Counted from the stretch's first letter, positions 15,118 to 24,894 are shown. The stretch is DNA of 32,000 bases from Patescibacteria group bacterium (GCA_028713575.1 JAQTOB010000005.1:26978-58977), one strand, 5' to 3'. The notes: a model not told the origin generated them from the sequence alone. Numbers and translations are program-made.

Positions 15118-18100
15118 TTATAATCTAGAACAAACTCCTTTATAATATGTATGTTTTTTCCTATCATAACAACAACATTCTTCTCCTGTACAGCCGCCAC
15201 AACTAGAACAACCTGTACAAGAGTCTCCACTTTGACACATAGATTCACTATTCCATTCGCAATTGCTGTTGCAAATTTTGCACCGACAAGTCTTCGCTTC
15301 TGCTTCCGTCTCGCCAGGAACACAAGCGCCTCCGCCCTGACAAAGTCCCCAAGAACAACTAAAACAATCTCTTAACCCTAAATTGCAATTGCCGCAAGGA
15401 ACATTAGTTTGTCCGTCGCAAATCTCTCCACAATTGACAGCGCCGTCGCCACAAGAACTAACCCATTTTCCATTACTGCATTTTTGTTGGGGTGTAACGG
15501 GATGACAATTACCTGGGGCATAACATTGATTATTATAAGAACAATAGTTTAAGGAACAACAAACTCCATCAACACAATTTCCGCTGCCGCATTTCAAATA
15601 CGGCCGCGCTCCTTGTCCTGTCACCGCTTTACAAATTCCGTCAGCATTGCAAGTATGACAAATTGAACAAGAATGTTGACCAAGGATATAAGTTTTACAA
15701 GTCCCGTTATCGCAGTAACGACAGCCTTGGTCCCCGCTTGTGCAACCTAAGGCCGTGGCGTCGGCGGCATAAACAGTTTGTCCGGAACAACTACCCGAAG
15801 GATTACATGCCTGACAAACACCACAAGCGCCATGTTCATTATTAGTATAAACCTTACAGGTTCCATTATCGCAATAACGGCAACGTTGGTCTCCTCCGCT
15901 TGTGCAACCTAAAGCCGTAGCGTCGGCGGCATAAGCGGTCGTTGGTTTGCATTTACCGCTTTGACAAATTTGGCAAGGACCACAAGCATGGTGTTCATTG
16001 TCATCATAAGTCTTACAATAATTGCCATAACTGTCATTTTTATCACAATAACGACAGCCTTCATCGCCACTTGTGCAACCTAAAGCCGTGGCTTTGGCGG
16101 CATAAGCGGTTGTTGGTTTGCATTTACCGCTTTGACAAATTTGGCAAACACCACATTTTGCCCCATCTGGTTTTTTCACATTGATTGAAGAACAATTAAC
16201 AGATCCTTCGCATATTTCTTCAACATCGCAAGGCCCGTCCACCGGACGACAAATCACCCTTTGATAAATCTGTGCAATCAAATCAGGTGGACATTTAGCG
16301 GATTCACCCGTACATTTTTCTTCAAAATCACAATCTCCTTTTTTAGGTCCGCAAACAACAGTACTCGCTTTAAAACGATGATTGACATCGCAACAAAGGT
16401 CATCAATATTGGAACACTGCCAATTAGCCGGCCGACAAACACTATCTAAACAATTACCCGAACAACAATCTGAATCAGAACCGCAGCTTGAGCCATTGAT
16501 TTTCTTCTCGCAGCCGTCTGCCCAATTACTATTGCAATTTTCCCAATCAGAATGACAAACCCAACCAGTATAAGTAGAATTACAAGTACAAGAAGCATGG
16601 GGCGGTAAAGCCACTTCCTCAGTATCACAAAATTCTCCACATTGAAGAATTCCATCATTGCAAACCGGCGCTTCTTCTGAAGAGTAATAATAATTGGTAA
16701 TACCAACTTGATCTGATTCATTAATATAAATTTTATCTTCTCCTTGCCAAACAACTTGTCGGTCGCTGTATTCCATGTTGGCACCCAAGGTGTAATAAAA
16801 GCCTAAACAAGCAGGGTCTTCCGGCGCATAATATTGATAAACATGGGAACCGACAGGATGTTCAAAAACCTTGGTCAATGAATTATAACAGGTATTTTTA
16901 CATTGATAATCCGGTTTGTCAGAACAATTAGCGCAAGAACCGTTGAATTTATTAACCGGGTCAAGAGGCAAAGAAGCGCCTAAAATTTTCCCTAAAGTAT
17001 TTTGCCAAGAAGGCCACAAACTGTTGGTTTTCCCTAAAACATAAGTTCCCTGCCCCAAAGCCGGATAAAAACCATAATTCTGTTTATAAGCTTCTACTTT
17101 TTCTTTTATTTCCTCTAAATCATAAATTCTTAAAAGGTCTCTTTGAATTTCTTCTTTCTCTGATGAATTGCTTAAGTTTATGTTAAACTTCCAATTATTT
17201 AATAATTGCTTAAAAATATCCTTTACTTCATCACTGGCCTTGTCGTTATAAGAAATAAGATAAATATAATTATTAATGTATGCCAATCTTCCAAAATCTC
17301 CAAAATCTACATTAACGGCGCCGACATAAGTGGTCCTTCCTTCTTGAAGGCCATAATAACCATCAATGACAATATTTTGGGGAGAACCGAGATTGAGTAC
17401 ATTTTCCTGATACCATTTTGCCGGTGATAAACGTCTGTTATTTTTGATTATCTTTAAACCAATTATGTCGCCGCTGTATTCTATGGGGAAAATAAATTCT
17501 TTAAGCAAATTTTCTTCTTTGCCGATAGAAATCGCCGGTGGTTGCAATTGCGGTAAAAGATTATTTTTTTCTTTTGTATCGCGGCAATATTTTATTCTGA
17601 AATTAGTTTCTTCATCTTCATAAGGACCCCAGGGATTTTCGCAAAGAAAAACATCTACCTGAGATTGGCCGGAAACGGAAACAATCGGGTTAGAACCAAT
17701 AATCTTGGCTGTCGCCGTAATTTGAGATTGGCCATTTTTGTTTTCAGCGGTAATCGTTTCCTTTTCTAAAACTGACCCGCTCACGGAAACTGTCGCCGGA
17801 TTAGAAGATTCCCAAGACCAAGTCCAGTCATAAACATTAGAAATGCCATAAATTTCATTTCCTTTGTCATCATACGTTCTGGCTATTAAATCTTCTGTTT
17901 GGTCCTTTTTTTCAAAAAAGATATTATCAGGGGCAATACTTACTTTTGACAATAAGCAAAGTTCATCTGGTATAAATTCCCAGCTTTGTTTTTGGCCTAA
18001 ATCCAGGCCGTATTGGTTTTTTAACAAACCACTAAGAACAACCACGTATTTTCTTCCCTGGTCAAACAATTCTTGCGTCTTTATCTTAATAACTGTTTCA

Positions 18101-24894: not shown

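What the first reader, a model, noticed from the sequence alone, without database searches (positions are those of the whole stretch)
15118..24894. A VirB2/TrbC-like pilin hairpin fused to a 3100-aa extracellular stalk in one 3258-aa protein
- **N-terminal module.** Residues 1-31 look like a Sec signal peptide (IPAKA|QQ). Residues ~55-125 (nt ~24505-24795) form two TM helices around a short basic loop: IIGRIVRIILSLLGIAAVIIMIIGGFIWITSGGSSEKVEKAKKIIVNGLIGLLIIVFAYALTSFV. I recognise this layout from small stand-alone T4SS pilins of the TrbC/VirB2 type, which are abundant in CPR genomes.
- **The fusion.** Here the module is not a ~100-aa pilin. It is the N-terminus of a huge protein.
- **Domain order that follows** (approximate aa):
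  - Big_5-like domains, from aa 296.
  - Two IPT/TIG domains, aa ~552-740.
  - A Cys-rich linker, aa 746-838.
  - A jelly-roll-like region.
  - A Big_2 domain.
  - Four IPT/TIG domains, aa 1187-1570.
  - A propeller-like region, aa ~1630-1870.
  - Alternating Big_5 and Big_2 domains.
  - A pilin-like head, aa 2594-2712.
  - A Cys-rich tip, aa 2745-3258.
- **Anchoring.** I saw no LPXTG, SLH or C-terminal TM anchor. The pilin hairpin would then be the only membrane tether, with both of its ends facing outward.

This would be a plausible long-reach adhesin for an episymbiotic lifestyle.
Basis: partly seen in the sequence, partly recalled or inferred. Interest (0 to 1): 0.8.

Follow-up and report, generated by a model that had tools for sequence, protein, structure and literature searches.

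The report
Giant adhesin fused to T4SS-type pilin
An ultra-small (Patescibacteria/CPR) bacterium encodes a 3258-residue surface protein whose only membrane-binding part is a small "conjugation-pilus" subunit at its N-terminus; this fusion turns out to be a conserved, widespread but apparently undescribed family that could be the missing host-attachment piece of these bacteria's secretion pili.

Summary
Window 15118-24894 (-) is one intact 3258-aa ORF. It has a Sec-type signal peptide (AKA|QQ) and a two-helix hairpin, aa 52-122, that scores above Pfam's threshold for T4SS_pilin (PF18895, 35-43 bits against 26.6). About 3100 aa follow with no further hydrophobic segment. They include at least four Big_5 stretches by Pfam, six TIG domains, Big_2-like domains, 156 cysteines and three tandem Cys-rich repeats.

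The fusion is not a one-off. Colinear orthologues sit in the same place (parA-parB-S21-yqeY-GIANT-TSP3-PsbP-like) in ten other Patescibacteria genomes, down to 30% identity. All of them keep the module. Of the 163 related proteins I examined, 28 carry one N-terminal module plus a tail of more than 200 aa.

The hairpin is the best-conserved part of these giants and has the same consensus as free pilins (GGFxWMTSGGxxEKxxKAKK).

No T4SS or free pilin gene lies within 10 kb. The "pilin-like head", propeller and jelly-roll calls remain unproven.

Best reading: a long-reach surface adhesin carried on a functional VirB2-like module, a "modular T4SS pilin". The main rival is a passive membrane anchor.

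I found no description of this fusion in the searchable literature. It is a new variant of known kinds. Interest 0.65.

The parts
15118..24894 (-). Whole gene: 3258-aa pilin-module-plus-giant-ectodomain protein
   Evidence: Intact ORF. Colinear orthologues include P0014 (2865 aa; 64% and 54% identity over the two long aligned blocks) and the L002 gene (3043 aa).
24802..24894 (-). Sec-type signal peptide, aa 1-31, predicted cleavage AKA|QQ
   Evidence: Basic n-region, hydrophobic core aa 6-32 and an AxA motif. The AxA|Q motif is conserved in homologues. No SignalP run was available.
24505..24741 (-). VirB2-like pilin hairpin: PF18895 match aa 52-122; helices aa 55-87 and 92-130 around the loop TSGGSSEKVEKAKK
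   Evidence: PF18895 at 35-43 bits against GA 26.6. NF045849 at E 6e-9. AF2 gives a helical hairpin. This is the most conserved region among the giants, with the same consensus as free pilins.
24400..24477 (-). Six-Cys knot directly after TM2 (aa 140-165, CIPGECCGFGYRCSVNKSCNIPDSSC)
   Evidence: Read from the sequence. The pattern C..G.CC..G.RCS...CN...S.C recurs in P0014, P0015, P0017 and P0021.
23263..24015 (-). Big_5 Ig-like domains (aa ~294-347 and 425-544)
   Evidence: Pfam PF13205 at 31-43 bits per segment; 113 bits and 4 stretches on the whole protein.
22699..23235 (-). Two TIG/IPT domains (aa 554-640, 657-732)
   Evidence: Pfam PF01833 and the internal profile search.
22381..22659 (-). 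Cys-rich linker (aa ~746-838, about 20 Cys)
   Evidence: Cys counts per 100 aa. The region is conserved in P0014, P0015, P0017 and P0034.
20224..21333 (-). Four TIG/IPT domains (aa 1188-1270, 1282-1352, 1377-1465, 1480-1557)
   Evidence: Pfam PF01833 at 59.9 and 40.8 bits per segment and the internal profile search.
19255..20127 (-). Lineage-specific insert (aa ~1590-1880) with four DGxY[LIV]Y repeats; possibly propeller blades, fold unverified
   Evidence: Absent from P0014, L010, L004, L006 and L007. Repeats found. No Pfam hit.
17665..19113 (-). Big_5 / Big_2-like block (aa ~1928-2410)
   Evidence: Big_5 at 26.7 and 39.8 bits. Two mutually similar Big_2-like units at aa 2087-2149 and 2320-2410, with only sub-threshold Pfam Big_2/aBig_2 hits.
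16945..17487 (-). Conserved 'head' domain (aa ~2470-2650), the best-conserved ectodomain block; fold unknown
   Evidence: 15 invariant residues across 12 homologues. It also exists as stand-alone ~280-340-aa secreted proteins, P0165-P0167. T2SSG is only sub-threshold. The AF2 model has pLDDT 48.
16282..16488 (-). Disintegrin-like Cys-rich segment (aa ~2803-2871)
   Evidence: Pfam PF00200 at 32.4 bits and E 1.6e-7, just below GA 35.1.
15706..16203 (-). Three tandem ~53-aa Cys-rich repeats (aa 2898-2952, 2957-3010, 3011-3063)
   Evidence: Read from the sequence and the internal profile search.
14519..15094 (-). Conserved downstream neighbour: 191-aa single-TM protein with bacterial TSP3 (Ca-binding) repeats, 23 bp after the giant's stop codon
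   Evidence: PF18884 at 59.6 bits. It follows the giant in L002, L004, L008 and L010.
12156..14279 (-). Conserved second downstream neighbour: 707-aa single-TM protein with a PsbP-like domain
   Evidence: PF18933 at 27.3 bits. Syntenic in L002, L008 and L010.
24978..27655 (-). Conserved upstream context: yqeY, rpsU (S21), parB, parA
   Evidence: Pfam YqeY. Synteny holds in 9 loci.

Best explanation
**What it is.** The gene encodes a giant cell-surface adhesin built on a functional VirB2-like pilin module, that is, a 'modular T4SS pilin'.

**Shown**
- The protein has a Sec-type signal peptide, then a two-helix hairpin of the PF18895 T4SS_pilin family.
- About 3100 aa follow with no other hydrophobic segment. 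They are made of Ig-like (Big_5, TIG, Big_2-like) and Cys-rich modules, with a conserved 'head'.
- The architecture is conserved and syntenic across Patescibacteria.
- The hairpin is the most conserved part and keeps the consensus of free pilins.

**Inferred from charges and from the known biogenesis of VirB2/TraA pilins**
- After signal-peptide cleavage the hairpin sits in the cytoplasmic membrane.
- Its basic loop faces the cytoplasm and both ends face outward.
- The stalk therefore projects tens of nanometres from the cell. At roughly 4 nm per Ig-like domain, about 13 recognised Ig-like domains plus other modules give this length.

**Proposed and not shown**
- The module still makes pilin-type contacts, so the protein joins the membrane pool of small paralogous pilins.
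- The T4SS then takes it up as a rare subunit, most simply the first one, which ends up at the tip because these pili grow from the base.
- In solved conjugative pili both pilin termini lie on the outer surface, so the C-terminal passenger would be displayed outward.
- It would supply the host-binding function for which Patescibacterial T4SSs have no recognised VirB5- or PrgB-type adhesin.
For: **Family membership**
- PF18895 above GA.
- NF045849, a pilin-like conjugal transfer protein, at E 6e-9.
- 29 of 51 module homologues also hit TrbC/VirB2 at E<0.01.
- Helical hairpin model.

**Topology**
- Only three hydrophobic segments, all N-terminal.
- Loop +4/-2 against flanks 0/-3 and +1/-5. 156 Cys in the ectodomain. 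No LPXTG.

**Conservation**
- The hairpin is 50-92% identical among giants whose neighbouring domains fall to 18-31%.
- Fused and free consensus sequences are the same.
- 8 of 29 fused modules have a free pilin as nearest neighbour, at about 60% identity.

**Recurrence**
- 28 of 163 related proteins have one N-terminal module plus a tail of more than 200 aa. The module is always N-terminal.
- Passengers include Big_5, TIG and propellers.
- Ten syntenic orthologues all keep the module.

**Literature**
- Both termini of TraA lie on the outside of the F pilus and the loop lies in the lumen (PMC5018250).
- PF18895 pilins lie near virB4 in 1135 of 1948 Patescibacteria assemblies, and no PrgB-like adhesin was detected (PMC12102498).
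- The pilin array is essential in S. epibionticum (PMC10633639).
- Modular type IV pilins are a precedent in another pilus class (PMC8179133).
Against: - No T4SS gene and no free pilin gene lies within 10 kb here or in ten orthologous loci. The context is housekeeping.
- I could not check whether these genomes encode VirB4 or small pilins at all.
- No pilus made of PF18895 proteins has been seen experimentally.
- A 3100-aa passenger on every subunit is sterically impossible, so incorporation would have to be rare.
- Link to solved pilins:
  - The sequence profile finds no solved pilin.
  - The fold search is non-significant. The best pilus hit is 8dfu, at E 1.6.
- High identity in TM helices is partly compositional.
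Confidence: 0.4

Rival explanations
1. Passive anchor. The pilin hairpin has been co-opted purely as a stable two-helix membrane tether. The protein is a static, membrane-anchored surface fibril or adhesin that works independently of any T4SS. It may act together with the two conserved downstream single-TM surface proteins (TSP3-repeat and PsbP-like).
For: - The gene lies in a conserved housekeeping context next to parAB, with no T4SS or pilin gene within 10 kb in any of 11 loci.
- The TSP3 gene starts 23 bp after the giant's stop codon and is syntenic down to 30% identity.
- The size of the passenger makes polymerisation awkward.
- A fold search of the hairpin model matches generic helical hairpins as well as it matches pilins.
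Against: - A mere anchor should need only hydrophobicity. Yet the hairpin, including its polar loop motif WMTSGGxxEKxxKAKK, is the most conserved part of the protein and is indistinguishable from the free-pilin consensus.
- A single signal-anchor helix would suffice, and is what the neighbouring surface proteins use.
Confidence: 0.35
2. Processed precursor. After export the chain is cut between the hairpin and the stalk. This yields an ordinary-sized pilin plus a released or wall-associated giant protein, so the fusion is a co-translational delivery device.
For: - From established knowledge: T4SS pilins are matured by C-terminal processing. In RP4, TrbC loses C-terminal residues before cyclisation. 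This step rests on my own knowledge and was not checked here.
- Cyclic TrbC and TrhA pilins are mentioned in titles and abstracts retrieved.
- Many relatives are tandem poly-pilin chains of 2-17 modules, some with internal signal-peptide-like sites such as P0024. This suggests that processing occurs in the family.
Against: - There is no hydrophobic segment or AxA site after TM2 for signal peptidase.
- The linker after TM2 is a conserved six-Cys knot rather than a disordered cleavable spacer.
- If released, the protein has no other retention signal: no LPXTG, SLH or C-terminal TM.
Confidence: 0.12
3. Artefact. The long ORF is an assembly chimera or a mis-joined run of genes, and the pilin gene is really separate.
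For: - The segment aa ~1590-1880 is unique to this window.
- Orthologues in L004, L006 and L007 are split into 2-3 ORFs.
- The exact protein is not on record elsewhere.
Against: - The module-to-stalk junction is colinear in P0014, P0015, P0017, P0021 and others, and in ten independent genome loci.
- Homologue clusters of the same length were recovered independently from JGI, ENA, NCBI and Logan assemblies.
- The reading frame is open for 9.8 kb in a 33-43% GC sequence, where stop codons are frequent.
Confidence: 0.03

Closest known systems
Patescibacterial VirB2-like pilins (Pfam T4SS_pilin PF18895), e.g. the essential pilin array of Southlakia epibionticum (PMC10633639; survey in PMC12102498)
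   Same: - The same HMM family, scored above threshold.
- Signal peptide plus two TM helices and a GG..W.TSGG..EK..KAKK loop.
- Up to about 60% identity between the giant's hairpin core and free pilins.
   Different: - Known members are proteins of about 115-200 aa, often in tandem gene arrays and often near virB4.
- This one carries a 3100-aa C-terminal passenger and lies alone in a housekeeping locus.
Conjugative pilins TraA / VirB2 / TrbC (PF04956) of Gram-negative T4SSs
   Same: - Long signal peptide, helical hairpin and basic inter-helix loop.
- The expected topology has both termini outside, and in the pilus on the outer surface (PMC5018250).
   Different: - The match is only sub-threshold (15.5-20.2 bits against 27.9).
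- The profile search finds no solved pilin.
- The fold match is not significant.
- These pilins are about 70-120 aa when mature, some are cyclised, and none is known with a large passenger.
Mbov_0395 / MMCAP2_0565 pilin-like conjugal transfer protein of Mycoplasma ICEs (NCBIfam NF045849)
   Same: - The hairpin aa 57-124 aligns to profile positions 11-78 of 80 at E 6e-9.
- This is a T4SS of a monoderm, as in Patescibacteria.
   Different: - The score (35.4 bits) is below the equivalog cut-off (40).
- That family consists of small proteins.
Modular type IV pilins, e.g. Streptococcus sanguinis PilB (PMC8179133)
   Same: The same design logic: a pilin polymerisation module with an adhesive module grafted onto its C-terminus, so that a filament displays an adhesin.
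   Different: - A different, unrelated pilin fold and machinery: type IV pilus, with a class III signal peptide and a single N-terminal helix.
- The passenger there is one domain, not about 3100 aa.
Giant Ig-repeat adhesins (SiiE, PMC6272769; Mobiluncus 7651-aa adhesin, PMC10619420)
   Same: A very long chain of Ig-like domains ending in a distinct tip, and the largest protein of a small proteome. Presumed long-reach adhesion.
   Different: - Those are retained through T1SS retention modules or LPXTG/sortase.
- This protein has neither and uses an N-terminal pilin hairpin.
T4SS-associated adhesins VirB5 (pilus tip) and PrgB (Gram-positive)
   Same: The proposed role: target-cell contact for a T4SS.
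   Different: - There is no sequence relationship.
- Those are separate proteins, not fused to the pilin.
- PrgB-like adhesins were reported absent from Patescibacteria (PMC12102498).

Membership tests
T4SS_pilin (PF18895), Patescibacterial VirB2-like pilins | HMM score above the curated gathering threshold over the full-length profile | tested here: met
   35.3-43.2 bits against 26.6, profile positions 2-71 of 71, aa 52-122.
T4SS_pilin (PF18895), Patescibacterial VirB2-like pilins | Cleavable signal peptide followed by two TM helices joined by a short basic loop | tested here: met
   Hydropathy, charges and the AKA|QQ site, and the AF2 hairpin. SignalP and DeepTMHMM were not available.
T4SS_pilin (PF18895), Patescibacterial VirB2-like pilins | Small stand-alone protein (about 100-200 aa) | tested here: not met
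   3258 aa. The module is 4% of the chain.
T4SS_pilin (PF18895), Patescibacterial VirB2-like pilins | Encoded near virB4/T4SS genes or in a tandem pilin array | tested here: not met
   There is no other module in the window, and none within 10 kb in 10 orthologous loci. Neighbours are housekeeping genes. The rest of the genome could not be read.
T4SS_pilin (PF18895), Patescibacterial VirB2-like pilins | Polymerises into a T4SS-dependent pilus | not testable with these tools
   The papers read here infer these pili from genomics and gene essentiality. None reports a filament made of this family (PMC12857230).
TrbC/VirB2 (PF04956) | HMM score above the gathering threshold | tested here: not met
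   15.5-20.2 bits against 27.9. 29 of 51 homologous modules hit at E<0.01, the best at 2e-6.
TrbC/VirB2 (PF04956) | Sequence or fold similarity to a solved conjugative pilin | tested here: inconclusive
   The profile search against PDB sequences gave no pilin. By Foldseek the best pilus hit is 8dfu at rank 3, E 1.6, TM 0.50/0.64. Helical hairpins are generic.
Type IV pilin / T2SS pseudopilin (T2SSG PF08334), for the 'pilin-like head' at aa ~2592-2648 | HMM above threshold, and a class III signal peptide with an N-terminal hydrophobic helix | tested here: not met
   14.7-15 bits against 21, and only 3 of 12 homologues hit at E~0.03. The region has no hydrophobic helix. The AF2 model is unreliable, pLDDT 48.
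Giant Ig-repeat surface adhesins | Long tandem series of Ig-like domains in a secreted protein | tested here: met
   Big_5 at 113 bits and TIG at 98 bits. Six TIG units and two Big_2-like units.
Giant Ig-repeat surface adhesins | Canonical retention signal (LPXTG/sortase, SLH, T1SS C-terminal signal with retention module, C-terminal TM) | tested here: not met
   No LPXTG-like motif, no SLH or RTX Pfam hit, and no C-terminal hydrophobic segment.
Giant Ig-repeat surface adhesins | Demonstrated binding to a target surface | not testable with these tools
   This needs an experiment.
Disintegrin (PF00200), aa ~2803-2871 | HMM above the gathering threshold | tested here: not met
   32.4 bits against 35.1, E 1.6e-7. 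It is disintegrin-like only.

The most novel reading that the evidence does not exclude
VirB2-like pilins of Patescibacteria form a modular class. The pilin hairpin acts as a general display platform that the T4SS loads into or onto its filament. Passengers range from single Ig domains to 4000-aa adhesins. The giant encoded here would then be the host-recognition tip of the otherwise adhesin-less, essential CPR T4SS. That would make the T4SS pilus, and not only type IV pili, a host-attachment organelle, and it would give the first example of a conjugative-type pilin carrying a passenger domain.
Probability: 0.3. Interest if true: 0.85.

Novelty: new variant of a known kind. Interest (0 to 1): 0.65.

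Why it matters
Patescibacteria/CPR make up a large share of bacterial diversity, and the cultivated members live attached to host cells. Their T4SS is essential in the one species tested, yet its role is described as 'completely unknown' (PMC11665869). Reviews single out their VirB2-like pilins as a puzzle, because monoderm T4SSs normally have neither pili nor these pilins (PMC12857230). A survey found no recognisable adhesin for the system (PMC12102498).

This family is conserved and chromosomal, and lies beside parAB. It welds such a pilin to a 2000-4000-aa Ig-like and Cys-rich stalk, which gives a concrete candidate for that adhesin.

It also offers a handle for experiments. Antibodies or tags on the stalk would show whether PF18895 proteins really form filaments.

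If the hairpin is only an anchor, the result is still useful. It would define a new way of tethering giant surface proteins in bacteria that lack sortase-type signals. It would also warn that HMM-based counts of 'VirB2 pilins' include proteins of very different kinds: giants, and poly-pilin chains of up to 17 modules.

Tried and rejected
1. **Word-indexed homologue searches.** The search with the N-terminal module returned only 13 small pilins and missed all giants. The searches with the head returned 2 and 7 short proteins. MSAs for structure prediction were therefore shallow.
2. **Exact-sequence look-up** of the giant in public assemblies: not on record. The source contig and sample remain unknown.
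3. **Profile searches against PDB sequences** with the module alignment A2 and the head alignment A1: no meaningful hit.
4. **Foldseek-PDB with the hairpin model.** There were no significant hits. An archaeal conjugation pilus came third among generic hairpins. I do not count this as evidence of membership.
5. **AF2 of the head (aa 2455-2745).** Mean pLDDT was 48.5, and its fold search is meaningless.
7. **Promoter and terminator scans** around the gene were no better than shuffles, so they give no operon evidence.
8. **Rejected readings.**
   - An LPXTG, SLH or C-terminal TM anchor: absent.
   - An assembly chimera at the pilin-stalk junction: the junction is colinear in more than 10 independent sequences.
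   - A T4SS gene cluster context: absent.
9. **Literature.** I searched for any description of PF18895 fused to large proteins and read the main candidate papers. I also checked the supplementary tables of PMC12102498, which list VirB2 hits without protein lengths. I found none.
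Full report
**1. The observation**

The window is AT-rich (29-43% GC) with almost all genes on the minus strand. ORF 15118..24894 (-) is uninterrupted for 9.8 kb and encodes 3258 aa.

A hydropathy scan finds hydrophobic segments only at about aa 6-32, 54-92 and 97-130, and none in the remaining 3100 residues. The first segment has a basic n-region and ends in PAKA|QQ. An AxA|Q site occupies the same position in six homologues.

Evidence on the next two helices:
- Pfam T4SS_pilin (PF18895) matches aa 52-122 over essentially the whole profile. It scores 35.3 bits on the full protein and 38.9-43.2 bits on N-terminal pieces, against a curated cut-off of 26.6.
- TrbC/VirB2 (PF04956) is detected only below threshold, at 15.5-20.2 bits against 27.9.
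- NCBIfam independently aligns aa 57-124 to the 'Mbov_0395 family pilin-like conjugal transfer protein' of Mycoplasma ICEs. The match has E 6e-9 and 35.4 bits, below the equivalog cut-off of 40.
- AlphaFold2 models aa 55-87 and 92-130 as a helical hairpin with pLDDT 80-90.

The inter-helix loop (TSGGSSEKVEKAKK) has 4 K and 2 E, while both flanks are acidic. By the positive-inside rule the loop is cytoplasmic and both ends, and hence the whole stalk, are outside. There are 156 Cys in the ectodomain, no LPXTG-like motif and no C-terminal TM segment. The core observation is therefore confirmed.

**2. The rest of the protein**

Verified:
- Big_5, 113 bits, four stretches on the whole protein.
- Six TIG-like domains at aa 554-640, 657-732, 1188-1270, 1282-1352, 1377-1465 and 1480-1557.

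Partly supported:
- Two mutually similar Big_2-like units at aa 2087-2149 and 2320-2410, with only sub-threshold Pfam scores.
- A disintegrin-like Cys-rich segment at aa ~2803-2871, 32.4 bits against 35.1.

Directly visible in the sequence:
- A six-Cys knot right after TM2 (aa 140-165).
- A Cys-rich linker (aa 746-838).
- Three tandem ~53-aa Cys-rich repeats (aa 2898-3063).

Not confirmed:
- Jelly-roll: no hit.
- Propeller (aa ~1590-1880): four DGxY[LIV]Y repeats but no HMM hit.
- 'Pilin-like head': T2SSG at 14.7-15 bits against 21, and only 3 of 12 homologues hit. The AF2 model has mean pLDDT 48.5, so its fold matches are meaningless.

The head (aa ~2470-2650) is nonetheless the most conserved ectodomain block, with 15 invariant residues across 12 homologues. 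It also occurs as stand-alone secreted proteins of ~280-340 aa. I take it to be a functional centre of unknown fold.

**3. The fusion is a family, not a one-off**

An exhaustive HMMER search with aa 1-136 against 1.84 billion cluster representatives gave 33,801 hits at E<=1e-3. I examined 163 module-bearing proteins: the best 150 from that search plus 13.

| Class | Number |
|---|---|
| Small free pilins | 57 |
| One N-terminal module plus a tail of more than 200 aa | 28 |
| 2-17 modules in one chain | 74 |
| Other | 4 |

- In the 28 fused proteins the module always starts at aa 7-49.
- Fifteen of the 28 are proteins of 1679-4069 aa.
- The giants are colinear with the window protein in four blocks: aa 1-880, 1010-1590, 1900-2450 and the head. 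Inserts and Cys-rich tails vary.
- Mid-size members combine T4SS_pilin with Big_5, TIG or propeller domains. Some of these may be truncated giants.
- None of the giants carries a name in any source. Several clusters were recovered at the same length from independent JGI, ENA, NCBI and Logan assemblies.

**4. Genomic context**

- A scan of one genome per GTDB species found 11 loci. Three record titles name Patescibacteria, and the others carry a generic 'uncultured Gammaproteobacteria' title.
- The order parA-parB-rpsU-yqeY-GIANT-TSP3 protein-PsbP-like protein is conserved.
- The inner set yqeY-GIANT-TSP3-PsbP-like holds even in L008, at 30% identity on a 1.03-Mb contig.
- All ten loci that include the N-terminus keep the pilin module, at E 1e-25 to 1e-41.
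- Neither the window nor any locus has another pilin module or a recognisable T4SS gene within 10 kb. The neighbours are housekeeping genes.
- By contrast P0003, a free pilin 38-39% identical to the module, sits in a tandem array of six PF18895 genes.
- The segment aa ~1590-1880 is absent from every orthologue examined, so it is a lineage-specific insertion.
- In three loci the giant is split into 2-3 ORFs.

**5. Is the hairpin still a pilin?**

- Across giants, TM1, loop and TM2 are 50-92% identical, while the adjoining ectodomains drop to 18-31%. For P0140 the figures are 55/67/57% against 21/18%.
- The consensus of fused modules and that of free pilins are the same: GGFxWMTSGGxxEKxxKAKK...GxIGLxII..AYAI..F.
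- 8 of 29 fused modules have a free pilin as nearest neighbour, at about 60% identity.
- A mere anchor would need only hydrophobicity. I read this as retained pilin-type interactions, with the caveat that TM composition inflates identity.
- The link to experimentally solved pilins is weak:
  - The profile search gave no hit.
  - Foldseek gave a non-significant match to the Aeropyrum conjugation pilus among generic hairpins.

**6. Mechanism**

*Shown:* the architecture, the family membership of the module, and the conservation and synteny.

*Inferred:*
- Sec export, signal-peptide cleavage and an out-in-out hairpin.
- A stalk that projects tens of nm. At about 4 nm per Ig-like domain (general knowledge), roughly 13 such domains plus other modules give this length.

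*Proposed (confidence 0.4):*
- The protein is a modular T4SS pilin.
- In the F pilus the loop of TraA faces the lumen and both termini lie on the outside (PMC5018250). A C-terminal passenger is therefore geometrically compatible with incorporation.
- Steric bulk means it could only be a rare subunit. Because these pili are thought to grow from the base (PMC12857230), it would plausibly be the first subunit, at the tip.
- Patescibacterial T4SSs have VirB2-like pilins often near virB4 but no detected PrgB-like adhesin (PMC12102498).
- Their pilin array is essential (PMC10633639), and their function is called completely unknown (PMC11665869).
- Modular type IV pilins such as PilB of S. sanguinis are a precedent for the design in an unrelated pilus class (PMC8179133).

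*Rivals:*

| Rival | Confidence | Basis |
|---|---|---|
| Passive anchor | 0.35 | Favoured by the non-T4SS context and by the conserved neighbouring surface proteins |
| Cleaved precursor | 0.12 | C-terminal pilin processing, and poly-pilin chains in the family |
| Assembly artefact | 0.03 | Window-unique insert, and split ORFs in some orthologues |

**7. Comparison and novelty**

- By HMM the module is a member of PF18895. By size and gene context it departs from every described member.
- It is not a demonstrable member of TrbC/VirB2.
- It works like a giant Ig-repeat adhesin but lacks the known retention signals of that class.
- In the searchable literature I found surveys and reviews of small Patescibacterial pilins and pilin arrays, but no mention of pilin-giant fusions or of poly-pilin chains.
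- I rate it a new variant of known kinds. The parts are known, but the combination, its conservation and its spread appear undescribed.
- Interest is 0.65. A T4SS specialist would be surprised by a VirB2-type pilin with a 3100-aa passenger. It also makes two questions directly testable: whether CPR T4SS pili exist, and how they bind.
- The mechanism is unproven, and co-occurrence with a T4SS could not be checked.

Noticed in passing
Related proteins P0016, P0019, P0024, P0036 and others; not in the window: 74 of the 163 module-bearing proteins examined are 'poly-pilins', with 2-17 PF18895 hairpins in a single polypeptide. P0016 has one signal peptide followed by 7 consecutive two-TM hairpins. 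P0024 has an internal signal-peptide-like site (STAHA|QG) before its second module. The published survey speaks of arrays of separate pilin genes, not fused chains.
   Followed up: partly
window 14519-15094 (-) and 12156-14279 (-): Two single-TM surface proteins always follow the giant gene. One is 191 aa with bacterial TSP3 Ca-binding repeats and starts 23 bp after the giant's stop codon. The other is 707 aa with a TSP3 repeat, a PsbP-like domain and two C-terminal ~45-aa repeats (GTLIKYxDQPGVY...FASGEIFExLGFKWE). The set is conserved down to 30% identity (L008), which suggests a functional surface module.
   Followed up: partly
window 19255-20127 (-), aa ~1590-1880 of the giant: This in-frame ~290-aa insert has four DGxY[LIV]Y repeats and is absent from all orthologues examined, including the closest (L010, P0014). 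It is either a recent domain gain or, less likely, a local misassembly.
   Followed up: partly
window 16945-17487 (-); proteins P0165-P0169: The conserved 'head' domain of the giants also exists as independent proteins of ~280-340 aa with an ordinary signal peptide. Some of these have a Cys-rich insert between the two halves of the domain.
   Followed up: partly
L004 1878-12694, L006 3-7942, L007 9965-17814: In three other genomes the orthologous giant is broken into 2-3 consecutive ORFs. Possible causes are frameshifts or sequencing errors, pseudogenisation, or programmed variation.
   Followed up: no
window 25986-27655 (-) with 24978-25862 (-): The giant gene lies three genes from parB-parA. 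These genes usually mark the replication-origin region (my own knowledge). The T4SS survey (PMC12102498) noted that T4SS genes in some Patescibacteria sit near dnaA, possibly for higher expression.
   Followed up: no
L012 2418-5234, L013 573-3389: P0003, a free pilin 38-39% identical to the giant's module, sits in a tandem array of six PF18895 genes (117-223 aa), with no VirB4 within the 10 kb read.
   Followed up: partly
P0007 (237 aa): This small relative pairs the hairpin with a peptidoglycan-binding domain (PF01471). It is another kind of passenger on the same module.
   Followed up: no
window 15001-16000: The 3' end of the giant gene has the highest GC in the window (0.43 against about 0.33 in the flanks). 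This coincides with the Cys/Gly-rich tail and probably reflects codon composition rather than foreign origin.
   Followed up: no
L001, L002, L004, L005, L007, L009, L010, L011 record titles: Eight of the eleven loci come from MAG records titled 'uncultured Gammaproteobacteria bacterium', although their gene content and synteny match the Patescibacteria records. These are probably placeholder or wrong taxonomic labels.
   Followed up: no
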